From assembly GCA_964016885.1 (NCBI GenBank), contig OZ024741.1, positions 43,214,001-43,278,000 of the forward strand: a stretch of 64,000 nucleotides of DNA, read 5' to 3'. Positions 6,675 to 63,737 of this stretch are shown piece after piece. A program made the translations under genes and the position numbers. How positions within the stretch are numbered: the stretch's first letter is position 1; the number at the start of each line of letters is the position of its first letter. Source of the stretch: Eledone cirrhosa (Eukaryota). The notes under the pieces were generated by a model, which saw only the letters and a program-made list of their open reading frames with translations, was not told where the DNA came from and did not search any database.

Positions 6675-6759
<85 letters not shown>

Positions 6760-6839
6760 GTTAAAAATGTACATCCACATATGTATACTGAAATACTAGT
6801 ATGCATATGAATACACACACGTATACATATGTAGATGTA

Positions 6840-7286
6840 CCGAGTTTTTTCACTGGTCACTTTACTGTGAGTGTCCAGCTATTCTGTATGTAAATACACA
6901 GACAAACCGGTTTTTAGAGTCATACTGGTTTTTGAGGAAACACCTTTCCTCTATTCTCCAGAAAGCCAGACAAGGAATATTGAACTAGTTTCGTTGTTGT
7001 TACAACTCATCAGCAATATTTACCTATCTTCCGGCCTTTCTAGAGAATCGTAAAAGCACATATCGTTATATGCTTTTTCTATGAAAATTAGTAGTGGGCA
7101 GACTAATTTGCATAGAGCGTGAGTACGTACCGGTTCAACGGAGACGATAAAAACAAATAACGAAACGAAATTAAATTTCGTTTCGTTTGTAACTCACTTT
7201 TGTATGACTGACGCTTAAACAATTAGCGTCAGTCATACAAAAGTGAGTTACAAACGAAACGAAATTTAATTTCGTTTCGTTATTTG

Positions 7287-7290
<4 letters not shown>
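6840..7290 (-). mobile_element. Solo HHR-bearing non-coding element with a terminal fold-back
   Basis: HHR, octamer at 7106-7113 and block 7067-7090 resemble the 500-bp array unit; ~65-bp inverted arms at 7151-7215 and 7225-7289; next to (TA)n. Confidence 0.7.
6976..7020 (-). ncRNA. Minimal type I hammerhead ribozyme
   Basis: Minus strand: aatattg-CTGATGA-gttg(taacaa)caac-GAA-actagt-T-caatatt; canonical core, GUU cleavage triplet. Confidence 0.88.
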
Positions 7291-9046: not shown

Positions 9047-9210
9047 CTATATATATATATGTGCATATATATATATATTATAAAAAGTCGGCTGATCCAT
9101 TGCCGACTTTTTATAATATAACCATCTCTTACTTCCTCCCATATCGAGTACTCTATTGAGTAATAGTCTACCCAGTTTCAAACTAAATCCATCCTGATAC
9201 ATGTGTATAT

Positions 9211-9275
<65 letters not shown>

Positions 9276-9435
9276 GAAAAAAGATGAAATCGAAAATGCA
9301 ACTGGAGTCTTTTTTTAAAAATATATATTTATTTGGTTCCTTTACCGGTTTCGCAGTTCTTCTGCCTTTCAAAAGTAGAATTGAGATGGAGGGTCTCTCG
9401 TTTTTCTCACATCTGGTTGGTCTTTGAATGTTACT

Positions 9436-10750
9436 TATGTTTTTAGGATTTTGGCTAGAGAAATATCCCAATGAGATACCTGACAGAATAGAAAAAAGCA
9501 TCATTACCGAGGGATTACAATTTATGTTACCGAGCAACTCTTTTGATTTCGATGGCAGTATTTACAAGCAAATATCGGGGACTGCGATGGGTACAAAAGC
9601 CGCTCCAACTTATGCCAACTTAGTCATGGCATACTTAGAGGTCCAGATATATAAACAGTTCAAATCAAAATACGGATTGAACTTCCACAAATATTTATCA
9701 GAGAATTGGAAACGCTACTTGGATGATTGTTTCATTCTTTGGTCTCACACACTCGACCAACTAAATGATTGCAAAAATATAATTAACCACATCCAACTCA
9801 CAATGGAATACAGCCAAGATCAACTCCCATTTCAGGACATCTTAATCTTTAAAAAGACACAAATATTGAAACTGACATACACTACAAACCAACGGATATC
9901 AAACAATACCTGCTATTCACCTCCAACCATCCAAAGCACACGAAGACGAACATTCCTTTTAACCTAGCAAGATGAATTTGCACACTTGTCTCCAATTATG
10001 AAACGCGAAATAAAAGACTTCAAGAATTAAAGGAAATTCTACTCGAAAGACAGTACCCACCATTACTAATAAATAATGGAATAGAAAGGGCTAAAGCAAT
10101 AGGCATTAATGAATTACGAAAACAGAAACAAATTCAAGATACGTCCAATTTTCTATCATATATCTCAACACACAACCCAAGAAATACGGAAGCTTACAAC
10201 ACTATTCACAAGAACATCCCACTATTGAAACAAGACCCAAGAATGAAAAAAGCCCTTGAGTCACACAAAATAATCAAAAGCAAAAGACAACCGAAATCAC
10301 TAAAAAAAATACCTCACCAATGCCAAATTACCTACCACAAACCCACAACTAACTGTCAAATGTGGACGCTCTAATTGTGGAATCTGCACTCACCTCATTG
10401 AAGGCAACACGTAACATTTCAATCAGGACAATATTTTGCTGTAAAAAATCACTTCACTTGCTCATCAAGAAATCTAATTTATGCCATTAAATGTAAAGGA
10501 TGCAATGAAGATTATATAGGACAATATAAACTCACACTCAGAAACAGAATGACAGTTCATAGCCAACAATTACGAGATCCAACCACGAGACAGATACCAT
10601 TAAGTTCACATCTAGACATATGCGCAAGTAATAAGACACCCAAATTCCAAGTCTTCCCATTTTATTTTTGCGCTGACAATACAACAGAACAGATACGAAT
10701 AAATAAGGAAAATATGTTTATTCCAAAATATAGACCAGCATTAAATATAG
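9436..10750 (+). pseudogene. PLE RT, Cys-rich linker and GIY-YIG (disrupted)
   Basis: GTAMGTKAAPTYANL, WKRYLDD, SNHPKHT, CGRSNCGIC, FTCSSRNLIYAIKCKGC..YIGQ; contains stops and frameshifts. Confidence 0.9.
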
Positions 10751-10944
10751 TTATACATTATGTCAACACCATAACATGCTAATCAACCAAACAGACACAT
10801 ACATACACACATAACACCTACTTTAGAAAATAAAACCAGAACTAAATAAACCTTAACATACGTTAATACTCTAAAACCTTAACATCCTAACTCTCCCCCC
10901 ACACACACAAATCCCTCCCCATTTCTACTAATAGAACCATCTTC

Positions 10945-29199: not shown

Positions 29200-31200
29200 G
29201 GTAACACTCTGATGGAGGATTACATTGATTATTCAGAATTAGCAATTGGTGCCATGTCAAAGATATGTGATTTTGCAAAACAAAAACGTTTCATGTAGAA
29301 ATTGCCGTCTAGATCCAACTACGCCACTTAGATAACCCACTACAAAGAATGAATGCCTTATAATGATTCACGTCATTTTTATGAGACACAGTTTCAAATG
29401 ACGTCTTGTGTTCCTTAATATATGCCAATATTCCATATTAAGAACTGGCATCTTATCAAATAGAATCTTCTTTTTACCTTCCTAATCTTATAAGTTTTTC
29501 CAAATAAATTCTTGGAAAGCATCAACGAAAAAAATGTTGATTTATTATTTTGGGTTCACATGTTAGAACTAGAAAATTCGTCCCACTGAATTTTATTCTG
29601 GCCATACGATCCGGAATTACCGTTAAATTGCTGGAAGGAAGCAGAAAAGTGCATTCATTATTGAAACTGCCACTTAAACAGGCAGTAACATAAAACTCCA
29701 TGTACAACATGAAGTAAATGGATCTCCAAAAGTTTTGTCCAAATTTATTGTTCGGAAGGAGCATAGGATACCTCAAAAATTGCCATTGGAAACATTGAAG
29801 CCTACACTTCGTGATAACAAGAATAATGATGAACTATTTCGTAGCTTTACCGTTGTTATATCAAGAGAATTTCGGGAAATTAATCCCGTTATTTCCAGTA
29901 TAAGATGAGATACTGAATGTATCAAGTCATAGATTCCATGGAATTTTATAGAAGGTATACATTTACGACCTACATGAGAATACATTTACATGTCGACAAC
30001 TTGGTTAGAGCATTTGCAGCATCATTTCTCAAGATTAGAAATGGTCTCATTTAAAAACAATTGTCATTCCTGAGAGTTGTGGAAAAGGGATATCTGAATC
30101 GTAGTTACATAAAGGAAAACATGTGAAAGTGCTATTCCTATACCTAGAAATGTAATAGGTAATCTGGAATGCCAACACATACGAGGGTCGGCTGAATAAT
30201 TCATAGATTGACTATGAAGGAGTGATGCTAGAGCTGTAAAATCTTGCATGCATTAATTTTACCTCTTCTTATTAATAACTGCATTGTTTCTTTCCAGGGA
30301 CTATGTTGTAAAATAAATCTCATTTGGTTATTTCATGAGACTATTTTGGTCTGCCTAAGAGCTTTTCAGCCTATGAAGCTTTCAGCCGAACCTCGTCAAC
30401 TAAAACTCAGGTTGGGAAACCCATCATACTGTTATATTTATCTAGATCCACCAAACATGATTCGTTGTAACATTGATGTTTTCAAACCTTATAAAAGGAA
30501 TCATTATCTCTTAACCTGGGAAAGGAAAATATGTTTTCATATCAGAGATATAATCATATCTCCAAATCTTCCATACGAATTTAAAAGGGCTCAATTCTAC
30601 ACGAAGCCAGATTTTGCAATGTCAACTAACGAGTATCACTAATATTATTGCTGTGCTTAGATATGCATAAGCTTGCTTTTCGCATGGACAATATTAGGTT
30701 GGTTGCTCAAATTTTGATATCCAGTTAACTTGATATTTCTACTGAAGATAAAAAACCCAACAAAACAATGCTCATGCAACGGCACTTGAAACCCGTTGAT
30801 TTCCTTTAATAGTTTCTTTAAGGCTTTGTTTCATTCATCGAAGTTTAACTCCTTCAATTTAATTTTATTTAATTTTTTTATCATTTCTGGTTTAATTTTT
30901 GCATAACTTCGGTTTTGCATAATTTGATTCTGGATTTTTTTAGGTTTCTTATTTCATCTTTATTGCGTGTGCAATTACAAAACTCTAGCGTTTCAGGATT
31001 AATATCCATCTTCAGTGACGTTTACTTGCTTCGTACTAGGGCAAAAATATATTGCATCCCATAGATTTTTCGTATAAAACATTGGTTGGAGGATCACATT
31101 TGCATATGACGTAAGCTTGAGGGGCTGATGGAAATTAAACATAGCATCAATATATCCTGAATCATAATACACGTTGTTCTTCCACAAGTATTGAATATGT
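29200..31200 (-). pseudogene. Possible decayed Toll-like receptor / LRR gene
   Basis: Scattered motifs across frames: LKELNF, GFKCRC (LRR-CT-like), WHSR, PNNKFGQNFWRSI (TIR box 3-like), SSNLTVIP, LSKNLFGKLIRL, LDLDGN. Confidence 0.35.
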
Positions 31201-33751: not shown

Positions 33752-36700
33752 TTACAGATATATACTCAGAGTATGTAATAAATATCGGGCCATTCTTGCT
33801 TCTCTCACCCATCTTTCAACAAAATGCTGGGAAGAGAGCACTTCCCTCTCTACTCTGATTTTCCTTTTCAAATGAAATTTGAAAAAGTCAATCAGAGCAT
33901 CACCGAAGAGGTAAGTGCTCGTCTTCAGCCCTTTCAAACGTGTCAACCATACTATCTCTTTCGCCATGGCCACCAGACAGATAAAAACTGCCTGCCTGCC
34001 CTTCCCGGCTAAAGGATGAGGGCGGGGAAATCCCCACGATGGAGTCAGCTGATAGCCGGATCTGTCCCACACGCGACAGCAGGTGTTCGACATAAACCCA
34101 CAAGTCAGCAATGCTCGGACACTGGACGAGTGCGTGCAGGACGGTTTCGTCGCCCTGCGCGCATCTCGGACAGGCCCGGCTGACAGCACCTCCATGCCTG
34201 TAGAGTTTATCCCGAACTGGCAAGGCTCCTCGGTAGCACTGCCAGGCCAGAGATTTCTGGAAGTTGTCCATAGGCCCTGGCCCGAAAGTTCTTCCGAAGA
34301 GATTGGCTAGTTGATTTTCGTCGACGCCTAGAGTTTCCCCAAGTACGTCGTCGCTCTTCCCCTCCACTAATCCTCTATAGAACGCCGAGGTGGAGTTTCC
34401 ACCGATCACATTGCCCGATTGGTCGAGGGCTGTGAGCGCTTGAAGACATTCCAGTCTCCAGGCGCTCCCTCTCTGTCTTCGCTTGACCCAGAACTGCAGC
34501 TCCGTCAAGGAAACGAGATGGGGAAATACGTGTCTAGCAAACGGCGACCACACCTGATCACCGTCGAGGAAGAGGTGGAGATGTCGTAGCGTGAGCGCGT
34601 GCCTGCACATCATCAGCCACGGAATGCCCAGCCCTCCACGTAGCGGGTGTTGACAACAGATGGACGGCCTGACCATCGGATCGCGTCCCTTCCACAAAAA
34701 GCGAAAGAGCAAACGCTCCAGCACAGTCAGGCGAGGCTTAGGACAAGGTATGATGGTCAGGCGGTAGCAGATGACAGACGCGATGTACGTGTTAGCCACC
34801 TCCGCTCGACCTTTCAGGGATAGCTTCCTCTCCACCCATTTCTGGGTGAGAGAAGCCACCCTGCTCGTAACCTCGTCCCAGTTTTTGTCCGTCTGGAGGT
34901 CCGGACCAAAACCAGACCCCTAGCAATTTAACCGGTCCGTCCGTCCAGCGTCCGACGACGCTGTTGGACGGCTTGGACCTGCCTCTCCAGGTGCCGGGCT
35001 GCAGGCTCACTGACTTTTCCTGGTTGATCATTGCTCCTGTCACCGCTTCGTATTCTCTTAGTGTAGTGCCGATCGCCTCGATGTGTTTGGCGTTCGACAC
35101 CACTACGGTGATATCGTCCGCATATGCTGACACGGATCTTCCGCATCCTAGTTTGCGCTGGACGCCCCTCAACGTCTCCAGTGTGTGCAGTAATGGCTCG
35201 AGAGTCAATACGTACAAGAGGGACGAGAGGGGACATCCTTGGCGGACTGAGCGCATGATGTTGAACGGTTCCGAAAGGTGACCGTTCACTCTCACCACAG
35301 AGCAGATGTCGCTGTGCATGGCAGCGATCCAGCCTCTGAAGACGGGCCCAAAGCCAGCCGCCCTCAGGACTGCCGCTAGGTAACGATGGTCGACCCTATC
35401 GAAAGCTTTCGACTGTTCTAAATTGATCGAGGACCCACCCGTGCCAGGTTCCCTAGCTACCCTCTCTACGATGTATCGCATGAGGTGGAGGTTGTCGTGG
35501 ATGGATCTGTCGGGAATGGCGCATGTCTGCGCCTCTCCCACCAGACCACCAACGACAAGCGCCAACCTCTTTGCTATCACCTTCGCCAAAATCTTGAACT
35601 CTGTGTTTAGCAGAGTTATGGGCCGGAAATTATCTAACTTATTCCCCTTGTTCGGATCCTTTCTCAGCAGTGCCACCGCTCCTCGGCTCACAGAACTGGG
35701 AATTCTCCCGTTCTGTTGCCAGTTGCAGTAGACGTCCGCCAAGAGGCCCCCGAACAAGTCTGGCATCTGTACGTAAAGTTCATAGGGCAGACCATCCAAA
35801 CCAGGCGATTTACCCCTTGTGCAGCCAGTCATTGCCTCCCTTACTTCAGTGGCTGTTATCGACTTTTCGCAACACCTCGCCTCAGTGGCCGAGAGCCGCG
35901 GCAGTCCGTCGAGGTAGACACAACGGTCCATCCCTCGACCCGGCCCACCGCTGTCCCCGAACAGCTGAGCGAAGTGTCGCTGAAAAGCTTCACACATTTG
36001 CCCGGGATCGCGTAGCATGCGACCGTCGTGGTCCACCAAAGACCGGATCGTGGCTTTGTTGCCACGACGTGCCTCCGCCACTCGGGCCCATTGAACGGCT
36101 TTCGTCTCCTCGTGTCTGAGAGCACGCACCCTTGCTCTGACAACGCAGCCTTCGTGCTTTGCATTGAAGAATTGATCAAGGGCCAATTTCGCCGCAAGCA
36201 CGTCGGTCGCAATGCCTTTGCTAAGCGCCTCGTCTAATTTTCTAACAAGTTCTCCCTCTGCTCTATTTTTCTCTATTGCTAAAGCCTTACTAAACCTAAT
36301 CGATTCTATTCTAATCGCTCTTTTCAGAGCAAACCACCACTTGTTGTTGACGATGGCCCCCGTCAACGCCCGCTTAACTAGTTCGCTAATCCGGTCTCTG
36401 TAGGCCTTGCGAGCTGGTAAGGACGCGTTTAGCTTCCAGTAGCCTGGTCCTCGTCTATGAAGCCTATCTAAGTGAAGCACACAGATCACGAATTTGAGGT
36501 CCGTGTAGCTGACTATCTTGAATTGTGGACAGCCTATGCTAGACCTATCTATTTCCCTACAAAATACTCTATCTAGATATGATCTGGATGACCCTATTCG
36601 ATTTGTCCAAGTCCACATTGGCACATTCGGGAAATCCAATCGGTACCTGTCCGACAGTTCAAAACGCCTGAGCAGGTTGGTGAGGCTCTTGCACCCTCCA

Positions 36701-37176
36701 CCCTTATCCGCTAATCCCACACAGTCCCAGCGTGCATCTAAGATCCCGTTCCAGTCGCCCACTAACACTAAAGAGCGGGACGTTCCAAGAAAGGTCTCCA
36801 GACGCCGGAAGAAATCAGGCCGCCCTGCTCCTGTCGGGGCATAGACGGCCACTAGCCTGAAAGCTTGCCCGTCTCCGCTGGTCACATCCAGCACCACCAA
36901 CTTACCCTCTGGGTCCAGGAAGATGGCCCGTATGGCGAGATCCAAACCTCTCCGAAAAAGCACAGCAACTCCTGCCCCCGATCCAGGACGGCTGGGAGAT
37001 GCGTACACATCGTAGCCGCCGAAGATCGGTGCGAAGGCCCGTGCTTCGGAGATTCTGGTCTCGCTGATGGCCACTACATCTATGTTTAGTGACCTGGGGT
37101 CGTTGAGCAGGTGACCCTGCTTCCATGACGAACCCAAGCCACGCGAATTTATGCTGCCTATTTTGAGTGAGGTCAT
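33752..37176 (-). pseudogene. Tx1 ORF2: APE endonuclease, RT and zinc finger (frameshifts near 34900 and 34000)
   Basis: SINSRGL, ISET, VYAP, GDWN, SYLD, WKLN, KSPGLDG, FRPITLLN, KAFD, QGCPLS, YADD, CPRC..ET..H..C. Confidence 0.92.
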
Positions 37177-37295
37177 GTTTAAAATAGAGTGGAAATGATG
37201 GGAAAGACCACTTACAGTACTTTTCGTAGAGGAGGGATGGTTTTTCCATTCCTTTTCACTTGATCGTCTGGTGAAGGGACCGTTGAATCGTCCCT

Positions 37296-39349
37296 TCAGC
37301 TGGTCGTCGGCTCTTCTATGAGTATGTCCGAATATACTCTTCGGTTGATAGTTCCTCCTAGGTCTCTGAAATCACCAATTGCGTTGGGGAATTTCGTTTT
37401 AATGTTTGTGTATTGTTTCTGTGCTATTTTTAGCAGTCTTATGTTAGTTGGCGTTTTGATTGGTGCTGGTATTATGTAGTCGTGTTGTGAAATGTCTGTG
37501 TGTTCAATTATGTAAGTCATTAGTTTCTTGTTGTGTGTATTTATTGCCGTGCATTTGTTTTTCTGGGGGTGGGGTTGGTTCTGCTATCTTCTTGTCGTTG
37601 TTGCTGGGTGTGTGTGTTTTGTTGTTGTGTTTGCGATGTTGGTGCTTGTGGTGGTGGTGTTGAAGGTGTTGTTGGCGGTGGGGTTATCGCCGGTGGTGAT
37701 GGTGGTGCTAGTGTGGGTGGTGATGGTGTTGGTGGTGTTGCTGCTGTGAGTCTCTTTGCAGTAGACTTTACTCTTTTTTCATTTCTTTCCTCCCTTTTCA
37801 AAGGCGATGATGCGGTGCTTCTGCGTTTGTGCCTTCTTACGACCTTTTGCCATCCCTCTCCCACCTCACACTCCATGTCTGATTCTGTGATGTCGGGGGG
37901 GGGGGGGGCAGCTCCACTCTTTCACTTGTTGTTGTTGGTGATGTTTGCACTGGAGTCTCTGTTGCAGTTGCATTTGGTATTGCTGTTGTTGTTGTTAATA
38001 TTTCCACTACTGCTGCTGTTTTTGATTTCCGTGGCGTGGGTATGGGTGCCACGGATCTATCGTTCCTGGTTGCTGCTTGTCCTGTTGCTGGTAGCCGTGG
38101 AGCCGGTTTCGGAAGGAGGTGGGTTTTCTCCTTTCTCAGGGTCTTCTCGTTGCAGAAAGCCCTGAGGTGAGTCTTCGATCCACAGCGAAAGCATTTCGTG
38201 TGGTTGCCCTCAACACTTATGGGTAGTTGAGTACCGTTATCGAAGTCTATCACATCCGGGATAGCTTCGATGCTCTCCTGGTTGGTTTGGATTAACATCT
38301 CAATGGAGGTGCCGACCCAATCTTCTCTTACTTTTTTCTGTACTTGCAGTACAGTTGTTTTGTCCTCGATTCCGATGAGGACAGACGCGGCCAGCCAAGA
38401 AGGGGCCATTCCGGGGGGAACGTGGGTCAGTTTGACCCTCACAATTTCTTGCCCGCAGTAGGAGGGCACCAACACCATTTCCTGGCTCCTTAGGGTCACT
38501 AAGAATTGAGCCTTTGCCTCCTGGGGTGTGGCAAAAAGCACGTCTACAGTGGCATATTTCTTGCCTCGGGTGATGTGCGTTTTCCGCTGCCACACAGACC
38601 CCAAGGCTTTTTGTATTTGAGACTCTGTGGCTCTTTCAACCCTACGGGATTTTGTGCTTATTGTACGGTACGTGACCGTACAGTGCTGTTTGGTTTCGAA
38701 AAATGTTTCGGCTGCCTTGCAGATTGCTCGGTGTCCGGTTTTCGTCACCATCTTGTTCGCTTCCTCTAATTCCTCATTTGTTATGAGGATGGTTTCCAGG
38801 TTCTTTGCGATACCTGCAAACGAGATTGGTTTTTCTTTGTGGCTGTTGTGTTGTTGTTGTTGTCGTCAGAGCTGCTGTTACTTTTGTTGTTGCTGCAGTT
38901 ACTACGACTACTGCCGTCGCTGCTGTTGCTGTGGTTGTTGTTGTTGCTGCTGCTGCTGTTGTTGTCTTTCTGTTGCTGCTAATGCTGTTGTTGTTTATGC
39001 TGCTGCTGAAGCTGTTGCGGCTGCTACTGTTGTTTTCCTTGTCACTGTTGCTGCTGCTGCTGTTATTACGACTGCTACTGCTATTATTCCTGACGTCAGA
39101 CGAATGAAATGGGTTTTCGTATTTCACGCACACCTTTTTCGTCGTTGTCGTCGTCGTCGTGGAGAAATCTTGCACGCTTTGCACGTGATTTTTCTTTTCT
39201 GGCGTCGCTTGCGAAAGAGAAGGGAGGGAGAGAGACACATTTAGAGAAGGGAGGGAGAGAGACAATCTTCTCTCTGCTGTAGTGACGATTGAGGAAGAAG
39301 AAGACGGAATGAGTGGGAGTGACCTATGAAAATTCTTTTTCGTGGCCAT
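37296..39349 (-). pseudogene. Tx1 ORF1 (gag-like), frameshifted
   Basis: MATKKNF start, low-complexity N-terminus, CCHC knuckle CFRCGSKTHLRAFC, Pro/Thr-rich C-terminus. Confidence 0.75.
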
Positions 39350-44490: not shown

Positions 44491-44644
44491 GTTTGTTTAT
44501 GTGTGTCCGTATACAGCGTGGTGATAATGCCACACAAGGGCCAAGTGGGATGGCGGATCCACAGATGGCTATGTAAACATACATTCGCCAATCCTCGATA
44601 AGAGTGTTTAAATATCGAACATAAACAGTTCGAATAACGGTGAA

Positions 44645-47600
44645 ATGGAGACTAGAACGTCATGTGACAGACTCTTACCCAACAGGTGCCCCCTGGCTCA
44701 GCAGCAGGAACCTGACTGTCAACCAAATACTGCTGATGTTGGAGGAAGAAGAAGAAGGAAAGGGGCCAGAACCAACTGGACGAAAGAATTGAATAGAACT
44801 GTTATGCAATGCTACCTGAAAAGTAACCCCAAGGAGAGGGGCTACAGGAGACGGATGCATAACATCTGGAACGAGATTGGTTTATTTAAATTAGATGAAC
44901 AAAAATTGGCCGGGCAGGCTCGGGTAATAAGAACTAATGGGTGGATAAGCGAGCTGGAACTGGAGGAACTGAGCAGAGAGAATGGCTTGGAGATGGCGGG
45001 TGTAGTATGCCAGACAAGCGAGCCGGCGGGAAATGAAGGTGAGGAGGTCCTGAGAACGGAGGAACCACCCGAAGTAGACAATGATCTGAATACTGAGATA
45101 AATAATACCTGGAACAGAGAAACGGCCACTGAGGAGATGAATGCTGACGGGCTAGGACAAGATTCGGTTGACATCCTAAATTTAGTGGTAGATGAGTTGA
45201 ACAATGATAGTGGGAGACCTATGAACCTAAGATTTGTAGACAGGAAAAAGTTAAAAGAAACAACAGCTAAGGTAAACAAAGTCATCCCATACCTTGAGGC
45301 GAGGAGTCTTCACCAGTGCAACAATATCCTCAAAGCAACAGCAAATACGGTGAGGAAACTACTTGGTATAAAAGCGAGAGGAAACAACAGACAAGAAAGA
45401 GCAGAGCCGTGGTGGAAGAAGCGACTGGGTGGGCAAATCGGGGAAATGAGAAATGACATAGGAAAGCTTGAGTCACTACTGAATGGGACACTAAAAAACA
45501 TAGGCACTAAAAATAGACTGGAAATAAAATACAAAACTAGGAGTAAAAAGCTAAATATTATCATAGAGGAATTGAAGCAACGCATTGTAGCAAAGAGTGC
45601 CAAAATCAGGCGATACGAGAACAGAGTCAGTCAGTATAAACAGAACCGCATGTTCGACAACAACCAGAAGATGTTGTTTGGACAGCTTGAGGGGAAAGAA
45701 AGAGGCAACGACTTGATCCCTGGGGCGGAACAAGCTAAAACATTCTGGAGAGGAATATGGGAGCAGGATGTTAGAAACAATGCCCAGGCAGGGTGGATTG
45801 AGACAGTACAGAGGGAGATCGGTGAGCAGGCACAGCAACAGACTGATTTGAGTATCACAGTTGAAACTCTTAAGGGGCAAGCCAAAAAACTAACCAACTG
45901 GAAATCACCAGGCCCAGATGGTGTGCAGGGGTATTGGATTAAACATTTAACATCCCTCCACCCGAAGCTGACGGCCATGTTCAATGACTGCTTGGTGTCG
46001 GGTGAGGTGCCAGAGTGGTTGACAAAAGGTACCACAGTTCTGATAATGAAAGACCGAATCAAGGGTAATGATGTTACCAACTATAGACCTATCACATGTC
46101 TGCCCGTAATGTGGAAACTGTTGACGAGCATTGTGTCTGAGGAAATCTACCATCACCTCCACACAAACAACTTGTTGCCGGACGAACAGAAAGGATGCCG
46201 AAAGAAGTCACGTGGTACAAAGGACCAGTTGCTTATTGATAAGATGGTAATGGGGAATTGCAGGAGGAGACACACTGATCTTGCCATGGGATGGATAGAC
46301 TACAGAAAGGCATTTGACATGGTGCCTCATTCCTGGATCACCAAAAGCCTGGAGATCTTCAGGGTGGCAGATAACATCAGACAGTTGCTGGGCAGGAGTA
46401 TGGGGTCCTGGGAGACAGAGTTGACATCAACTGGAGTATCCTTGGGAAGCGTGAAGATCAAGAGAGGTATCTTCCAGGGAGATAGCCTGTCCCCTCTGTT
46501 GTTTGTCCTTGCCCTGATGCCCTTGACCATTATGCTGCGAAAAGTGAGAGCAGGATACAAGTTGGGAAGGGGAGAGCTTACCATCAATCACCTCCTCTTC
46601 ATGGACGATCTTAAGCTCTTCGGGAAAAGTGAGAAGGAGTTGGATGTGCTTGTTGGCACTGTCCGTATTTTCAGCAGTGATATATGTATGCAGTTTGGTA
46701 TTGGTAAATGTGGAGTCATTGTGATGAGGAGGGGTAGGTTGAGCAGAAGTAACGGGATCCAGATACCAACAGGTGAGATGATAAAGGAAATTGACTCTGA
46801 GGAAGGATACAAGTATTTGGGCGTTCTGGAGGCTGATGGCATAAAGAACAAAAAAATGAAGGAATTGTTAAGAACTGAATACATTCGGAGAGTAAGGAGC
46901 GTATTGAAGTCACATCTGAACAGCAGAAATGCCATAAGCGCAGTAAATTCCCGAGCTGTGTCTATTATTAGGTACAGTGCGGGAATTCTGAGATGGAATG
47001 TTGCTGAACAAAAAGAAATGGATAGGAAGACTAGGAAGCTATTGACTATCTACAACATGTTCCACAAGAGGAGTGATGTCGATAGACTCTACCTAAGGAG
47101 ATCTGAGGGTGGAAGAGGTCTTATCAGCATAGAGGACTGTGTTCAGATGGAGAAAAACAACCTATACAAATACGTGAACTATAGTAAGGAGCCAATGCTC
47201 AGAGCTGTACTGAAGGAGGGGACAGTAGGCCAGGGGATACCCAAGGAGGAAATAACATCAAGGAGGAAGAGCAGCCTTAAGGGAAAATCCCTTCATAGTA
47301 CCTTCTTTGAGAAAACTGAATTTAGAGATCCACAGACATGGAACTGGTTGAGAAGAGGAGACCTCAAAAAGGCTACAGAAGGAATGCTAATGGCTGCGCA
47401 GGAGCAGGCCCTCAAAACGAAGTGGTTGAAGCACCATATCTACAAGGAGGAGGCTAGCCCACTGTGCAGGATCTGTGGAGAGAGAGAGGAGACTGTGGCT
47501 CACATTGTGTCCGAGTGTAAACACCTAGCCCAGACCCACTATAAGGGCTGGAGACACGATGTGATGGGCAGGGTGATCCATTGGCACCTGTGCAAAGTAA

Positions 47601-48037
47601 ACAATCTACCACATTCTGAGAAATGGTATGAGCATAGGCCAGAGGCGGTGATGGAGAACAGTCAGGTGAAGGTGCTGTGGGATTTTAGGATACAGACGGA
47701 CAAAAAACTGGAACACAATAGACCTGACCTGGTGGTTGTGGACAAAGAAAAAAGATCGTGCCTGATTGTGGATGTGGCCTGCCCGTTCGACACGAGAGTG
47801 CAAGAGAAGGAGAGGGAGAAAATTAACCGATACCAGGACCTAAAGTGGGAGGTGAAAAGGATTTGGAACTGCCATGAAGTCAAAGTGATCCCGATTGTCA
47901 TAGGCGCACTGGGGACTATCTCCAAAGGTTTCCAGGGATGGTTAAAGAAAATCGGCCCCTTCACGCTTTTTGGAACGCTTCAAAAGGCATGCTTGCTTGG
48001 AACGGCAAGAACCCTCCGAAACGTCCTGAATATCTGA
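44645..48037 (+). CDS. Intact R4/Dong-type retrotransposon protein (Myb-like N-terminus, RT, zinc knuckle, restriction-like endonuclease), 1130 aa
   Basis: Uninterrupted ORF with KSPGPD, YRPITCL, DYRKAFD, FQGDSLSP, FMDD, CRIC..H..C, RHD, RPDLVV, VDVACP, KINRY; short 3' UTR then (AAT)n. Confidence 0.95.
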   Translation: METRTSCDRLLPNRCPLAQQQEPDCQPNTADVGGRRRRKGARTNWTKELNRTVMQCYLKSNPKERGYRRRMHNIWNEIGLFKLDEQKLAGQARVIRTNGWISELELEELSRENGLEMAGVVCQTSEPAGNEGEEVLRTEEPPEVDNDLNTEINNTWNRETATEEMNADGLGQDSVDILNLVVDELNNDSGRPMNLRFVDRKKLKETTAKVNKVIPYLEARSLHQCNNILKATANTVRKLLGIKARGNNRQERAEPWWKKRLGGQIGEMRNDIGKLESLLNGTLKNIGTKNRLEIKYKTRSKKLNIIIEELKQRIVAKSAKIRRYENRVSQYKQNRMFDNNQKMLFGQLEGKERGNDLIPGAEQAKTFWRGIWEQDVRNNAQAGWIETVQREIGEQAQQQTDLSITVETLKGQAKKLTNWKSPGPDGVQGYWIKHLTSLHPKLTAMFNDCLVSGEVPEWLTKGTTVLIMKDRIKGNDVTNYRPITCLPVMWKLLTSIVSEEIYHHLHTNNLLPDEQKGCRKKSRGTKDQLLIDKMVMGNCRRRHTDLAMGWIDYRKAFDMVPHSWITKSLEIFRVADNIRQLLGRSMGSWETELTSTGVSLGSVKIKRGIFQGDSLSPLLFVLALMPLTIMLRKVRAGYKLGRGELTINHLLFMDDLKLFGKSEKELDVLVGTVRIFSSDICMQFGIGKCGVIVMRRGRLSRSNGIQIPTGEMIKEIDSEEGYKYLGVLEADGIKNKKMKELLRTEYIRRVRSVLKSHLNSRNAISAVNSRAVSIIRYSAGILRWNVAEQKEMDRKTRKLLTIYNMFHKRSDVDRLYLRRSEGGRGLISIEDCVQMEKNNLYKYVNYSKEPMLRAVLKEGTVGQGIPKEEITSRRKSSLKGKSLHSTFFEKTEFRDPQTWNWLRRGDLKKATEGMLMAAQEQALKTKWLKHHIYKEEASPLCRICGEREETVAHIVSECKHLAQTHYKGWRHDVMGRVIHWHLCKVNNLPHSEKWYEHRPEAVMENSQVKVLWDFRIQTDKKLEHNRPDLVVVDKEKRSCLIVDVACPFDTRVQEKEREKINRYQDLKWEVKRIWNCHEVKVIPIVIGALGTISKGFQGWLKKIGPFTLFGTLQKACLLGTARTLRNVLNI

Positions 48038-49254: not shown

Positions 49255-49560
49255 GGACAATCTGCTGATATGCAAATCTGGCGGATAACTGGATCTGCTA
49301 ATATGCAGATCTGACTGATCAGCCAGTCTGTTAATATGCAAATCAGGCCGATCAGTCACTGTGTATTTTTGAAAATAGCATATATTTTCACTGGCTCTGA
49401 CGGTTGGCAGGTGAACACTGAGCTTTTCTGATGAAGGGTGACACCCAGAAATATTAGTCTCTGCAGTTCTGTTTACATGCCAAGACAAGAGCAAGAATGA
49501 AGGGTTCATTCTACTGACATGGCTTTATCACTGAGGCTTGTTTGCATAATTGCAAATGAA
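49255..49560 (+). mobile_element. Element with octamer repeats and a degenerate HHR
   Basis: Three ~33-bp repeats containing ATGCAAAT or ATGCAGAT, then CTGATGA-a-gggtg(a)caccc-a-GAAA-tatta-GTC at 49428-49459. Confidence 0.5.
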
Positions 49561-51488: not shown

Positions 51489-51561
<73 letters not shown>

Positions 51562-51614
51562 GTAAGTATGTATGTATACGTACATACATATATGTATACA
51601 GACGTACAGTAGCA

Positions 51615-51678
<64 letters not shown>

Positions 51679-51834
51679 TACATACAGGTACACATACATA
51701 TATGCACGCATCAGTTTAGCGGACGCTTATTATAACGCCGCTTTGTTCGTTTGTAAACAAACTGAACAGCCTGAATTTATGCCATACGGTGTTAAGGCAA
51801 CCACGTCACCTTTTTGTTCAACACTGACACAGGA

Positions 51835-51877
51835 ACGATGTACTAGTTTCAAGCTTGTTAGCTATCATCAGCACCGT
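51835..51877 (-). ncRNA. Minimal type I HHR, array unit 1
   Basis: acggtg-CTGATGA-t-agct(aaca)agct-t-GAA-actagt-A-catcgt. Confidence 0.85.
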
Positions 51878-51911
51878 ATACCCATCTGCCAGATAGTTGA
51901 ACGTTCGAAAG

Positions 51912-51959
51912 TATATACTTTCCTTATGAAAATTAACGGCTGAGCAGCCTAATTTGCAT
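51912..51959 (-). promoter_or_regulatory. Candidate snRNA-type promoter (octamer plus PSE-like block), repeated in each full unit
   Basis: ATGCAAAT at 51952-51959 and TAATTTTCATAAGGAAAGTATATA at 51912-51935; the same arrangement is at 7067-7113. Confidence 0.45.
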
Positions 51960-52112
51960 ATTGAGTGAGTTAAATCGGTCAGGCATACCGAAAACGATAA
52001 GTTGAAAAAAATGAAAACGAAATTTCATTTGTCACTCTTAGTATGGCACTTACTTAAATGTAAGTATGTATGTATACGTACATACATATATGTATACCGA
52101 CGTACAGTAGCA

Positions 52113-52176
<64 letters not shown>

Positions 52177-52332
52177 TACATACAGGTACACATACATATA
52201 TGCACGCATCAGTTTAGCGGACGCTTATTATAACGCCGCTTTGTTCGTTTGTAAACAAACTGAACAGCCTGAATTTATGCCATACGGTGTTAAGGCAACC
52301 ACGTCACCTTTTTGTTCAACACTGACACAGGA

Positions 52333-52375
52333 ACGATGTACTAGTTTCAAGCTTGTTAGCTATCATCAGCACCGT
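52333..52375 (-). ncRNA. Minimal type I HHR, array unit 2
   Basis: Identical to unit 1. Confidence 0.85.
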
Positions 52376-52610
52376 ATACCCATCTGCCAGATAGTTGAAC
52401 GTTCGAAAGTATATACTTTCCTTATGAAAATTAACGGCTGAGCAGCCTAATTTGCATATTGAGTGAGTTAAATCGGTCAGGCATACCGAAAACGATAAGT
52501 TGAAAAAAATGAAAACGAAATTTCATTTGTCACTCTTAGTATGGCACTTACTTAAATGTAAGTATGTATGTATACGTACATACATATATGTATACAGACG
52601 TACAGTAGCA

Positions 52611-52676
<66 letters not shown>

Positions 52677-52832
52677 TACATACAGGTACACATACATATA
52701 TGCACGCATCAGTTTAGCGGACGCTTATTATAACGCCGCTTTGTTCGTTTGTAAACAAACTGAACAGCCTGAATTTATGCCATACGGTGTTAAGGCAACC
52801 ACGTCACCTTTTTGTTCAACACTGACACAGGA

Positions 52833-52875
52833 ACGATGTACTAGTTTCAAGCTTGTTAGCTATCATCAGCACCGT
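52833..52875 (-). ncRNA. Minimal type I HHR, array unit 3
   Basis: Identical to unit 1. Confidence 0.85.
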
Positions 52876-53110
52876 ATACCCATCTGCCAGATAGTTGAAC
52901 GTTCGAAAGTATATACTTTCCTTATGAAAATTAACGGCTGAGCAGCCTAATTTGCATATTGAGTGAGTTAAATCGGTCAGGCATACCGAAAACGATAAGT
53001 TGAAAAAAATGAAAACGAAATTTCATTTGTCACTCTTAGTATGGCACTTACTTAAATGTAAGTATGTATGTATACGTACATACATATATGTATACAGACG
53101 TACAGTAGCA

Positions 53111-53174
<64 letters not shown>

Positions 53175-55662
53175 TACATACAGGTACACATACATATATG
53201 CACGCATCAGTTTAGCGGACGCTTATTATAACGCCGCTTTGTTCGTTTGTAAACAACTTATCGTTTGATGTATGTCGGAGATGTATGTCAACAAATACGG
53301 GAACTTGCCCAAGGAATCAGTAACAGAACATCCAATATGGCGGCCGCTCTCAGCCTATAACCAATCAAACCCCCCTCCTCCCCTAATAAACCCCCACCCA
53401 AATAGATTCCCCTCCCCATTCTCCCCCACTCACTTCTTTTGAGTTAGTTCTTCTTTATTATAGTGGTTCATTTTGAGTTATTTCTTTATTAATAGTGATT
53501 TCTTTGTATATTACCACGGTTGACTTAATGGGCTTGGAGAGTTGACTCCCTTGATGTCTGACCGCTCGATAAGTTAGGGGTTGTGCCCCTTGAGCAGGGC
53601 TGTGTCTAGCTGGTCTACCTGCTGTCTGCTACTACCCGAGACTGGACACGGTCGTAGCCACAGGCCAGCGCGTGCGCGATAGCATGGAATATATATTTTC
53701 TGCTAGTCACCCCGTGTAATATGATACCCCAAGATTCCATGCATGAGATTCACCGAAGCATGCGCAGTCTTAACAGGGAGATGACAAACGAACTTGAAAA
53801 TAACACAAGAGAGACCCTTTGGATAGCGTAGACGCCGGACCATACCCGCAAATATATACAGACCTGTCTTGAATATGCATGGCTGACGCAATATGGATAA
53901 CACGACCAACATCTAAGCTGGAACCGACCCCTACAACAAACAAAGAGGGGAGAGCCCTTCGCATTTGATCAGTCGCGTGTGTGCTTGGAGTTCGTAGTAT
54001 ACCACCCCAGTCAAATCCACACTGGTTTTTTTGCCAATATAGCATGTAAACCAATACATCCTATGCAGCGAGACCTTGGATTTAGAACCGGCAGCGTGCA
54101 ATCCCCGAAACTAAAAGATCGAACGGACCACACCCAGCAACCAGTAGCTATTTGATCCACAGGTACATTTCCCAGAGAGTCCACGAAGCTGATAGTGAAT
54201 CCCAGCTGATTCGTGAACTCTGAACTTTTAAACAAGACCAAATGTGCCTGGAGCTATGCAGATGACTACATACGCATAATGGATATCGCGCCCACAAGGT
54301 CACCTGTATTGTTTATCCTGCTGTATGTGTGTAAAGTATCCGTGCGTGGGATATCCCTGAGTACATTTTCTTGACTATCAATTGTTAATTGATTGTTTGT
54401 TAATTACGCAGGAGTATACCATTATGTCTTTGTTAATCATATGTGATGCTGTATGTGTGTAAAGTATCCCTGAGCTAATTTTGTTTGACTGTTAATTGTT
54501 TATTGATTTTTTTGTTAATTAGGCAGGAATATATTATTATGTCTTTGTTAATCCTGTATCAATAATTTTATAGTAATTTTTTAATCCTGTATCAATAGTT
54601 TTATGATAATTTTGTAATAATTTTATAATAATTTTATAATAATTTTGTGATAATTTTATAATCATTTTTTGATAGTACATTATTAGATTACTGAAGCTAC
54701 CTTATACCTTCTTAAAAATACATTTTATAATTATTGCTTTTTAAAAATACATTTTATAATTATTGTCTTTTTGCTTATGTATTTTCTTACTTATAATTTT
54801 CTTTTATCTTGTCCAACTTGATAAGCTCTTTGAATTGCTCCCTAATTAAATTACTTAAATTACTTAAATTATTTTATCTATTATACCTAAGTTGTATCTG
54901 TTGAAGCAGCCCTTTGAAAATTCCTCGGATATCCCAAATACCGTAATTTTTAACTTTTAATTCATAATTTTCCTCAATTCGTTTATATATATCCTTAAAG
55001 GCTCTCTAAAATTTTAATTCTTCGAAGGGTCTCTCGGAGGAGGTTCATATTAAAAATATTAAAGGGGACTTTTCTGAGGGGTTTATTGAAGGCTTTTTGA
55101 ATTAACCTTTAATTGATTAGTTTCTTTCAACTTAGTAGAGATTATCAAAACTTCGTAAATTTTCTGAAATTTTTTAACGAGATCTCTGGGGAAGAAAGTT
55201 TTTTTCTTTCGAAAGAAATTTTTTCTCTCGAGGGAACTTCTTGGGAAACTTTATATTTTTTTAGGGAAACTTTATATCTTTATTTTTTATTTTTTTTATT
55301 TTATTTTATTAGTCTCTTAATCTCTTCTAGTTTGTTAACTTTATTGGGGCTTGTAAGCTTTAGGCACTTATTGAGGGATTTTTTAAGGTGTTTCTACGAG
55401 ATCCCAAGTCTTTTACTTTTAATGCGTAAATTATAAATTATCTAATTTTTAACCTTCAATCCCTGACTCTTAGGCCATTTTCAAATTCTCTTAACTCCCC
55501 ATAACCCATCCCTTTACAATTCCGACAACTAATATAAAAGAGCCCCCTTAGAATATAGACCCCAAATATACAAGCGGAGCTGCTGATGTATACCACAATT
55601 TCAAACTGCTAGTCTTAAGTGATACGTTGATGTAAATAATGAACTTACAATCACATGTTATA

Positions 55663-59017: not shown

Positions 59018-61266
59018 AGATCTCGGATGTACTTCACAAACACACACACACTACGCACAACACACAACCTCACCAAATCTCAACTCACCACTCTCTCCAA
59101 CCTAAAATCGAAGAACCTTATCTACCTACCCCCGACAAGGGAAAAGAATTCTGCGTCAAAAGCAGAGAGGCCTACAACACCCTGGCCCTCCAACAACTTG
59201 ACGTTGACAACCTCTACTCCAGGGTCACTGGAATCACTCCCGCGCAGATAGAGAGCACATCAACGCCGCCTGGGCCAACATCTGCGACCGGTGGAAGCTC
59301 AGGAAGAAGCTGAGATACAACCTCCTCACGAAGAACAGCAGACTACTCACCTTCTATCACCTCGTGAAAACACAGAAACAGGGACCCGACATGAAGATCA
59401 GGCCCATTGTATCGTGCGTGGAAGGACCACTCTACAAAATTTCATGGCTCCTAGCCAGAATACTCAAACCCATCTTCGACACCTTGCCGAGACACGGTAA
59501 CAGCTCGAAGAGGTGTTGAAGCGCCTGCATCAAATGGATCCCGACACCAGAAAGAATAACAGATATGCCTTCAGCCTTGATGTAGTCGATCTCTACACCT
59601 CGGTCCCGGCACTCCTGGCCGTCAATATACTGATGGGACGCGTCCAATCCACCGACCTACACTGCTTCCATCGTCGTCGACAACACCTACTTCGGATTCC
59701 TGGACCAAACATACCAACGAAGCTCGGGACTGCCCATGGGATCAAGCCTGTCGGGTGTGCTAGCGATCTCTTACATGGACAGCCTCGAGCGCAAGGCACT
59801 CAACGCCTGCCACCCCAACGCCATCGCCTTTTTCTCAAAGTACGTGGACGATATCCTCATCCTCACATCTTCCCAAGACATGGCGAACACAATCTATGAG
59901 ACGTTCAACAACACGGACGAGAACATTGACTTCAGTGTTGAACACCCCAACGACGACGGGTCACTTGCCCTCCTCGACTTCCGAATCAACATCACGGAAC
60001 AGGGAGGGATCCACTGCAACTTCTACCGAAAGGCAGCCTGCAGGCACCTGTTCGTCCACTACAAGTCCGCCGTCCCTAACTGTGCCAAAAGAGGATACAT
60101 CACGAACGAGATCGCGCGAATCAAAAACAGATGCAGCGATCCCGCAAGTGGTGTCACTCATACCAAGCGATTCCTCGAGGTGCTGGAGACGAACGGGTAC
60201 CCTACCTCGCTCACAGAAAGAGTAGGAGACACCAGACACAAGAGACAGAGAGGCACCCAAGGCAAGTACTTCCTTAAAATGCCATACCTGGGCGAGAATA
60301 CCACCAAAGCTATCCGCAAAGCTATACGGAGAGAGGACCTCCACATCCACCTGGCCCAGATAGAATGTAACAAGTGCAACCAATACTACATAGGTAGCAC
60401 AATCCGGCCGTTGCACATCCGGATCAAGGAACACACTAAAACCAGGGCATCGTCTTTCCGGAAACACATTGCCAAATGCGGAAACAAAGACGGAAGGCCC
60501 ATTGTCACAATTCTAGCGACAGAAAGAAACGTCGGCACGTTACGTATCAAGGAAGCACTTTGGATCAAACGCCTAGGGCCACAACTAAATAACCGATCCG
60601 AGAGAAGCGAAATGAGGTGGTTGGTTTAAGTTAACAAACGATAGCAACAACACACGCACACACACACAAGCGAGACAGCAACACACGCACACAAACACAC
60701 ACACACACAGTTGCATTCCACCATACGAACATACTACACTGACAATACAGAGGAACAAGGCAACAACACACGCACACACAGACACACAGTAACATTCACC
60801 AAACAGGCAGAGAATGGACTGACAGCTAGCGCCACCCCACTCCCACAATTGAAATAACTACTTCGGCCTCTGACCTCTGCCTGACCGACCCCATTTCACG
60901 CGCACGCGCACTGTGCTGAGTACCTCAGATATTCAAAACAACGAACACCGGAGGACACGTTTCGCACCTTTCCGACAGACAACTTTCATCCCCCCCCCCC
61001 CCCTTCCACCGGAAAAAAACCCAGTTGATGGATGTGAATCCGAAATATATAGGGACAATTAAATCTTACCCAAGGTAACTCTTTCTCGTGTTGTTATTTT
61101 TATTTTTATCCTTTACGCTCATTCCTTCATTCCTCTACACGTTACAATCTTATACACGCCACGCTTCTCAACGTACATCCACTTACATCTCTCTCTCCAC
61201 CACCGGATCCTGTTACCCGGAGATTTACCCATCTGCATTGTCGAGGCTTCCAAACGACTTAAAGAA

Positions 61267-63432: not shown

Positions 63433-63737
63433 CTATTATATTATAAGTTGAGCCAACTTATACAGCTTCATATGCAAATGAGATTAATCACCTAATTTAC
63501 ATAGACGAAAAAAAAAAACTATATATTTTCGCATGTTTCAAAGGCCAGCAGTAGCAAGAGCGGGAGAGATCGTCCTGACGAGTACCAGTTGAGTTTGAAA
63601 TTCATTGACGATTGTCCCTCTTGCCTTCTGCCGGGTACGGCCCGGTGGCGTTAGCTGCCAGTGGTATTCATGGCTATAGATTTCTACGTGTTTATTTATA
63701 TATAGAAATACAAAATTCAAATATATATATATATATA

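What the first reader, a model, noticed from the sequence alone, without database searches (positions are those of the whole stretch)
51878..51960. Octamer plus conserved PSE-like block just upstream of the ribozyme: internal snRNA-type promoter
Seen: ATGCAAAT followed ~17 nt later by TAATTTTCATA(AGG/GAA)AAAG(T/C)ATATA lies 35-47 nt upstream of the HHR in both the array units and the diverged solo element (7067-7113), while the surrounding sequence has diverged. A third element (49270-49459) also has octamers, then GAAAATAGCATATA, then an HHR-like motif. Known: newt satellite 2 is transcribed from an snRNA-type octamer/PSE promoter. Inference: each unit is a self-transcribing and self-cleaving module. 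The T7 run on the transcribed strand argues for Pol II rather than Pol III read-through.
Basis: partly seen in the sequence, partly recalled or inferred. Interest (0 to 1): 0.75.

Follow-up and report, generated by a model that had tools for sequence, protein, structure and literature searches.

The report
Ribozyme repeats with hybrid snRNA promoter
These 498-base repeats carry, just ahead of a hammerhead (self-cutting RNA) motif, a box matching this animal's own U6-type RNA promoters but spaced like its U1/U2 promoters, so they likely hold a built-in promoter for an RNA that is predicted to cut itself and is likely pasted around the genome by Penelope-type enzymes.

Summary
The octamer-then-hammerhead pattern has 34,912 matches in this genome against 2 for the control, in at least four lineages of non-coding retrozyme repeats with Penelope-type insertion ends. 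The octamer is the best-conserved stretch of the unit.

The interpretation needs correcting.
The PSE-like core lies between the two.
- The extended octamer matches this genome's Pol III genes (5 of 5 U6, U6atac and MRP promoter types) and none of 17 Pol II types.
- The TATA-like box sits 4-5 nt closer than in those Pol III genes, at Pol II spacing, and a Pol II PSE core is full or partial in two lineages.
- The T7 run occurs only in the youngest subfamily, but insertions show that the copied RNA crosses the T runs, which favours Pol II.

Odds: promoter about 0.8; Pol II 0.5, Pol III 0.3. No RNA data were found. Precedents are newt satellite 2 and schistosome repeats. The scan noted this cassette before on other DNA of this genome.

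The parts
51557..53256 (-). Family A retrozyme array, 3.4 units of 498-500 bp, 3' end joined to (TA)n
51949..51960 (-). Extended octamer box TATGCAAATTAG (also 52447-52458, 52947-52958); matches the -76 to -78 box of host U6/U6atac/MRP promoters
   Evidence: 19.0 bits on the host Pol III matrix, host leave-one-out 14.1-18.3
51939..51944 (-). PSE-like core CTCAGC at octamer+15; partial match to host Pol II PSE core ATCAGT
   Evidence: 2.3-3.3 bits, background p 0.004; best offset in +8..+24
51925..51935 (-).
   Evidence: (z -2.2)
51912..51917 (-). TATA-like box, 42 nt from octamer start, 27 nt from PSE-like core
51887..51887 (-). Predicted transcription start (TATA+30, an A after C); inferred only
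   Evidence: host genes have the TATA-like box at about -30
51826..51890 (-). Type I hammerhead, extended stem I, core CTGATGA..GAAA 51871-51847, palindromic 2-bp stem III, predicted cut after GUA at 51841
52005..52011 (-). T7 run, young family A only, about 50 nt before the next octamer
51995..52001 (-). TTAT|CG motif, one of two preferred 3' ends of family A insertions
   Evidence: 27 of 58 distinct ends in bins -50 and -40
52052..52065 (-). Short hairpin ACTTA-CATT-TAAGT, the other preferred 3' end of insertions
   Evidence: 25 of 58 distinct ends in bins -110 and -100
6754..7289 (-). Family B insertion in (TA)n: one whole 466-bp unit (6754-7224) plus inverted tail piece (7225-7289); cassette 7066-7114, HHR 6976-7020
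49270..49460 (+). Family C copy: repeated octamers, exact ATCAGT at octamer+15, TATA-like box, decayed HHR
63472..63625 (+).
30991..31105 (-). Octamer 90 nt before an HHR-like core without a clear stem I; uncertain, possibly chance or a relic

Best explanation
The block is likely an internal snRNA-type promoter of a protein-less hammerhead retrozyme: an octamer box like that of the host's U6-type genes, a PSE-like core and a TATA-like box at the spacing of the host's U1/U2 genes, which likely recruit SNAPc, a POU factor and RNA polymerase II. Shown: the motifs, their spacing, their match to host promoters, their retention in four lineages, about 35,000 genomic cassettes, and Penelope-type insertion ends. 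Inferred: transcription would start about 16 nt before the ribozyme core and run through the T runs and the next unit's promoter. Two hammerheads, probably acting as a dimer, would then cut out a monomer that holds the promoter and may be circularised. A Penelope reverse transcriptase/endonuclease would start copying at one of two internal sites and paste promoter-bearing copies into (TA)n.
For: Pattern count 17,926+16,986 against 1+1. In 1.13 Mb taken at fixed intervals, 7 of 58 structured HHRs have a sense octamer in the -125 to -68 window and 0 of 58 an antisense one. Across families A, B and C (46-61% identical), the longest invariant run is TATGCAAAT (9 nt; 0.025 expected), ahead of the HHR core (7) and ATATA (5). 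The extended octamer scores 14.9-19.7 bits on the host Pol III matrix; 17 of 17 Pol II promoter types score 1.5 or less. The TATA-like box is at octamer+41 to +43 in 7 of 8 family A, B, C and E representatives, against +46 to +48 in 5 of 5 Pol III types; the exception has an expanded A run. Counted from octamer+15 this is 26-28 nt, inside the host Pol II range of 25-29. Drosophila separates Pol II from Pol III snRNA promoters by a like 4-nt shift (PSEB 30-37, TATA 34-41; PMC1761439 passages). PSE core match at +15: C 10.1 bits, A 3.3-4.8. Insertion 3' ends lie beyond T runs, and at the same place in subfamilies without T7. Whole-unit insertions include promoter and T runs. In B, stem I pairs with bases 5' of the predicted start. 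The octamer arm stays fixed while its pairing partner varies.
Against: The strongest single match, octamer plus (T/G)AG, is specific to Pol III genes here. The Pol II PSE core is absent in B (-11.4 bits) and weak in E (-1.3 to -5.6), within the range of the Pol III genes for B. The AATTAA box of Pol II genes is missing (4.5 bits or less; 12 of 17 host types score above 8). T runs of 4 or more cluster at the end of the unit as a Pol III terminator would, although their absence from the body is not significant (P 0.13-0.48). Octamer and block form an RNA hairpin in A and B (z -2.2, -3.8). The Pol III matrix rests on five promoters. The four lineages are related, so retention is by descent, not independent. 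50 of 58 structured HHRs in the sample have no octamer. No transcript or start site was observed.
Confidence: 0.5

Rival explanations
1. The cassette is a U6-type (type 3) RNA polymerase III promoter. Most transcripts stop at the oligo(T) runs near the end of the unit, and rare read-through supplies the promoter-containing RNA that is mobilised.
For: Octamer box at -76 to -78 in 5 of 5 Pol III promoter types and 0 of 17 Pol II types. Element TATA boxes score 7.3-9.3 bits on the Pol III matrix in 7 of 8 representatives. The T runs of 4 or more lie at the end of the unit or in the promoter. Schistosome HHR repeats are reported to use Pol III (PMC6765202 passage). Several earlier scan notes read it as U6-like (leads only).
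Against: Octamer-to-TATA distance is 41-43, not 46-48, about half a helical turn off. Young family A, with many 99-100% identical copies, would have to be copied across T4+T7, and family B across two T5 runs. Insertion ends do not sit at the first T run. Body T4 depletion is not significant.
Confidence: 0.3
2. The block is not an active promoter. It is kept as an RNA hairpin or protein-binding signal of the retrozyme RNA, or is a relic, and the units are transcribed by read-through from host genes, as reviews assume for animal retrozymes.
For: Octamer and block pair as a hairpin in A and B, with one T-A to G-C double change in E. PMC7761336 (passage) says retrozymes do not seem to harbour promoters. 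A tandem 311-bp HHR repeat without octamer exists in L262. The cassette fits neither host promoter class fully.
Against: The hairpin is absent in C and in the window's E copy (z 0.4, -0.8). The octamer arm is invariant although mismatched partners are tolerated. Family C has multiplied octamers. The motif, its 3' extension and a TATA-like box recur in the same order and strand as in host promoters.
Confidence: 0.17
3. Chance resemblance of AT-rich motifs between two related repeats.
For: 10 octamers in the window is within chance; A and B are 61% identical.
Confidence: 0.03

Closest known systems
Newt satellite 2 (Coats, Zhang and Epstein 1994; paper not held; seen only as cited in PMC2220036 and PMC6765202 passages)
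   Same: Tandem HHR repeat with an internal snRNA-type promoter, reported as Pol II-transcribed.
   Different: Invertebrate host; at least four lineages; octamer box matches the host's Pol III genes; Penelope-type insertion ends documented here; the newt motif layout (octamer, PSE) is recalled, not read.
Schistosoma Sm-alpha/Sj-alpha HHR repeats (PMC6765202 passage; primary paper not held)
   Same: Promoter placed before the ribozyme, so it ends up at the 3' end of the cleaved monomer and drives the next unit.
   Different: Reported as a Pol III promoter (tRNA-like by recall); here an upstream-type snRNA cassette with octamer and TATA.
Metazoan non-LTR retrozymes (PMC7229834 passages and discussion read; bioRxiv 10.64898/2026.07.22.740005 parts 1-3 of 5 read; PMC7761336 passages)
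   Same: Tandem non-coding units with a type I HHR, co-occurring with Penelope-like elements.
   Different: Units of 420-500 nt; those papers report no internal promoter, and one review says none seems present; no cephalopod mentioned in PMC7229834, no mollusc sampled in the preprint.
Penelope-like elements, e.g. Anolis Poseidon (PMC11167929 parts 1-2 of 4 read)
   Same: Two internal 3'-end sites ('tail'), AT-rich targets, inverted pieces, short palindromic stem III.
   Different: No ORF; the 4 sampled HHRs near PLE-like ORFs have no octamer.
Host U6/U6atac/MRP and U1/U2/U4/U5 promoters (this genome)
   Same: Octamer box and TATA as in the Pol III genes; PSE core position and spacing as in the Pol II genes.
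   Different: Lacks the Pol III spacing, the AATTAA box of Pol II genes and the distal TTACCTCCCTT motif.

Membership tests
Non-LTR retrozyme | Tandem units of a few hundred nt, each with a type I HHR | tested here: met
   498-bp x3.4 array, one HHR per whole unit; B arrays of 466 bp
Non-LTR retrozyme | No protein-coding region | tested here: met
   Only a 110-125-aa stop-free frame running through the TA repeat; not scanned against Pfam
Non-LTR retrozyme | Co-occurrence with PLEs and PLE-type insertion marks | tested here: met
   RT plus GIY-YIG frames in the window (partly below Pfam cut-off); inverted copies; two 3'-end sites into (TA)n
Non-LTR retrozyme | Self-cleavage and circular RNA | not testable with these tools
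   No RNA run listed
Host type 3 (U6-like) Pol III promoter | Octamer box ATG(C/G)(A/T)AAT(T/G)AG | tested here: met
   14.9-19.7 bits against host 14.1-18.3
Host type 3 (U6-like) Pol III promoter | TATA 46-48 nt from octamer start | tested here: not met
   41-43 in 7 of 8 representatives
Host type 3 (U6-like) Pol III promoter | Transcript ends at an oligo(T) run | tested here: inconclusive
   T runs cluster at unit end, but copied RNA must cross them and T7 is not conserved
Host U1/U2-type Pol II snRNA promoter | PSE core ATCAGT at -55 to -59 | tested here: inconclusive
   Full in C, partial in A, weak in E, absent in B
Host U1/U2-type Pol II snRNA promoter | PSE core to TATA-like box 25-29 nt | tested here: met
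   26-28 counted from octamer+15
Host U1/U2-type Pol II snRNA promoter | AATTAA box 31-34 nt before the PSE core, no proximal octamer | tested here: not met
   Box score 4.5 bits or less; octamer present
Host U1/U2-type Pol II snRNA promoter | 3' box (AATCAGA-like after U4/U5) | tested here: inconclusive
   One loose match in A at +183, none in B
Any snRNA-type promoter | SNAPc/POU binding and a mapped start site | not testable with these tools
   Needs ChIP, 5' RACE or CAGE

The most novel reading that the evidence does not exclude
An ancestral retrozyme took a U6-type (Pol III) octamer-TATA promoter and switched it to Pol II by a 4-5-nt shortening and gain of a U1/U2-like PSE core. This let an upstream-type promoter, normally lost on retroposition, travel inside a ribozyme-cut circular RNA through oligo(T) runs. 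The roughly 35,000 copies would then be POU-responsive transcription units and a natural mutational series for polymerase choice at snRNA promoters in a little-studied animal group.
Probability: 0.3. Interest if true: 0.72.

Novelty: new variant of a known kind. Interest (0 to 1): 0.52.

Why it matters
A review states that animal retrozymes seem to lack promoters, which leaves their high expression unexplained; only newt and schistosome repeats are cited as exceptions. Here four lineages keep a cassette that can be matched part by part to the host's own snRNA promoters. This makes the promoter question, and the Pol II versus Pol III choice, testable with a short reporter. It also yields a first description of this animal's snRNA promoter grammar and puts tens of thousands of octamer sites across the genome. 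The layout itself has precedents, and activity is unshown.

Tried and rejected
Expression: no RNA holder was listed; this is no evidence either way. Four runs of unknown kind, laid as contigs, gave only sequence variants.

Rfam: no HHR at gathering score in the window.

Generality: a metagenome scan gave 113 loci, of which 1 passed the HHR structure filter; treated as chance, no conclusion drawn.

T-run depletion in the body as a Pol III sign: not significant. T7 as the argument for Pol II: rejected as stated, because it is subfamily-specific.

The 'block' as the PSE: rejected. My own first reading, a plain U6-type promoter (note), was weakened by spacing and read-through.

Family A 3'-end mapping was swamped by the TA repeat and redone. 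Family E gave no whole unit, so it is missing from the unit alignment. The element at 31105 and three diverged hits (L324-L326) fit neither model well and were not counted as lineages.

Rows left out of the promoter sets: U6 L084 (no anchor), L085 and the L077 type (no or interrupted promoter), U6atac L094-L098 (look like retrocopies), U4 L204-L213 (not examined), and near-duplicate array copies.

Primary papers on newt and schistosome repeats were not held. Supplements of the bioRxiv preprint were not seen and could list promoter features.

Full report
Setting. The window lies in G000:C2:43214001-43278000 of a 3.0-Gb animal genome. It looks octopus-like to me, which is a recalled impression and comes from no call. 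The finding sits in a 3.4-copy array of a 498-bp unit, 51557-53256, read on the minus strand.

Observation. The octamer, the block TAATTTTCATA, the AAAG(T/C)ATATA box and the hammerhead core are present at the stated places in the array and in the solo element at 7113-6976. The third element at 49270-49460 has the described order, with a decayed ribozyme. The ribozyme of family A reads CTGATGA, a 4-bp stem II, GAAA, a palindromic 2-bp stem III, GUA, then stem I. Rfam finds it only weakly (HH9, E 0.053; nothing at gathering score). PMC6765202 (passage) describes this short palindromic stem III for Penelope-element ribozymes.

Is it chance? Wider tests settle it. TATGCAAAT followed 72-100 nt later by the HHR core occurs 17,926+16,986 times, against 1+1 for the reversed pattern. 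In 800 kb taken at fixed intervals, 7 of 70 octamers precede an HHR core, against 0.0019 per random position. With a stricter HHR filter on 1.13 Mb, 7 of 58 HHRs have a sense octamer and 0 of 58 an antisense one; 50 of 58 have none. The 97 distinct cassettes in hand fall into 7 clusters and four lineages, A, B, C and E. Across A, B and C (46-61% identical) the longest invariant run in the unit is TATGCAAAT, longer than the ribozyme core.

What the element is. Copies form arrays and carry inverted pieces. Their 3' ends join (TA)n at two preferred sites per family: A, 25 and 27 of 58 ends; B, 10 and 10 of 22; C, 14 and 18 of 41. This resembles the two internal reverse-transcription starts, the 'tail', and AT-rich targets shown for Anolis Poseidon (PMC11167929, parts 1-2 read). 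Frames with RT and GIY-YIG matches lie in the window. The units are therefore non-LTR retrozymes of the kind linked to Penelope-like elements (PMC7229834; bioRxiv 2026.07.22.740005). The 4 sampled HHRs near PLE-like ORFs lack the octamer, so on this small sample the cassette belongs to the non-coding units.

Host snRNA promoters. I read upstream of U1, U2, U4, U5, U6, U6atac and RNase MRP genes of the same genome. The 17 non-redundant Pol II promoter types share an AATTAA box near -90, ATCAGT at -55 to -59 and a TATA-like box near -30, with no proximal octamer. The 5 Pol III types share ATG(C/G)(A/T)AAT(T/G)AG at -76 to -78 (3 exact octamers, 2 with one mismatch) and TATA at -30. Polymerase labels for these genes are from established knowledge.

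The cassette is a mosaic. Its extended octamer scores 14.9-19.7 bits on the Pol III matrix (host leave-one-out 14.1-18.3; Pol II genes 1.5 or less). Its TATA-like box lies 41-43 nt from the octamer in 7 of 8 representatives, against 46-48 in the host Pol III genes. At octamer+15 there is a hexamer with CA(G/C) in all four lineages. It matches the Pol II PSE core fully in C (10.1 bits), partly in A (3.3-4.8), weakly in E and not in B (-11.4). From that hexamer to TATA is 26-28 nt, inside the Pol II range of 25-29. The AATTAA box is missing. In Drosophila a 4-nt shift of the downstream box marks Pol II against Pol III snRNA promoters (PMC1761439 passages); that this rule holds here is inference.

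TAATTTTCATA is the reverse complement of TATGCAAATTA at 10 of 11 positions. It folds with the octamer in A and B (z -2.2 and -3.8) but not in C or the window's E copy. It varies within family A: changes at 51929 and 51931 carry about 54% of depth in run X1. The octamer arm stays fixed against varying and mismatched partners. So the block is a hairpin arm or a second, inverted POU-type site, not the PSE.

The T runs. T7 is confined to young family A; other subfamilies have T4-T6, B has two T5, and the C unit examined has T9+T5. The runs cluster at the end of the unit, which suits Pol III, but their absence from the body is not significant. Whole-unit insertions contain the runs and the promoter. 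Insertion ends fall beyond the runs, and at the same motif in subfamilies without T7. In B, stem I pairs with bases 5' of the predicted start. The copied RNA therefore crosses the runs, which is natural for Pol II and needs leaky termination for Pol III.

Mechanism. Shown: motifs, spacing, match to host promoters, conservation, copy number and insertion marks. Inferred: SNAPc and a POU factor bind the cassette; Pol II starts near 51887 and reads into the next unit; paired hammerheads release a monomer that holds the promoter; it may circularise; a Penelope enzyme copies it from internal sites into (TA)n. I give 0.5 to this, 0.3 to a U6-type Pol III promoter with read-through, 0.17 to an RNA-level signal or relic, and 0.03 to chance. 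No RNA holder was listed, so expression is open.

Novelty. Newt satellite 2 (snRNA-type, Pol II) and schistosome repeats (Pol III) are precedents, seen only through citing passages. PMC7761336 says retrozymes seem to lack promoters. My searches (listings only, except for the papers named) showed no description of this cassette in a cephalopod or of mollusc snRNA promoter motifs; the library omits most subscription papers. Earlier scan notes describe the same cassette elsewhere in this genome, some as U6-like; they are leads, not support.

Noticed in passing
L097:1390-1620 (G000:C19:7531494): A U6atac retrocopy is joined directly to an inverted family C retrozyme piece, which would fit template switching by a Penelope-type enzyme between a retrozyme RNA and an snRNA.
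   Followed up: no
L051-L056, L031, L033, L071-L073, about -250 to -290: Several host U1, U2 and U6 genes share a distal motif TTACCTCCCTT (or close variants) instead of a distal octamer; it is not seen in the retrozyme units printed.
   Followed up: partly
U1, U2, U4, U5 loci (L031-L070, L154-L203): Pol II snRNA genes here carry a TATA-like box at -30, so TATA alone cannot select Pol III as it does in vertebrates; U4 and U5 are followed by an AATCAGA-like 3' box.
   Followed up: partly
L073-L090 (G000:C19:31.78-31.84 Mb): Tandem array of variant U6 genes with changed 5' stem-loop and an ATGCTAAT box; some copies have a short repeat inserted in the promoter.
   Followed up: no
L262:8749-9682: A 311-bp tandem hammerhead repeat with no octamer upstream: a retrozyme family without this cassette, a useful control.
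   Followed up: no
window 7388-10782 and 59501-60629: Broken Penelope-like elements (RT and GIY-YIG frames), the first with an inverted 5' part, next to the family B insertion.
   Followed up: partly
window 51906-51921: The TATA-like box of family A lies in a palindrome (GAAAGTATATACTTTC); B and C have hairpin-like flanks around theirs.
   Followed up: no
L324-L326: Diverged relics with octamer plus (T/G)AG and an HHR-like core, perhaps older lineages of the same system.
   Followed up: partly
window 44612-48037 (-) and 33900-37371 (-): Long retrotransposon-like frames of 1141 aa and 859+339 aa; by my reading non-LTR elements, not scanned.
   Followed up: no
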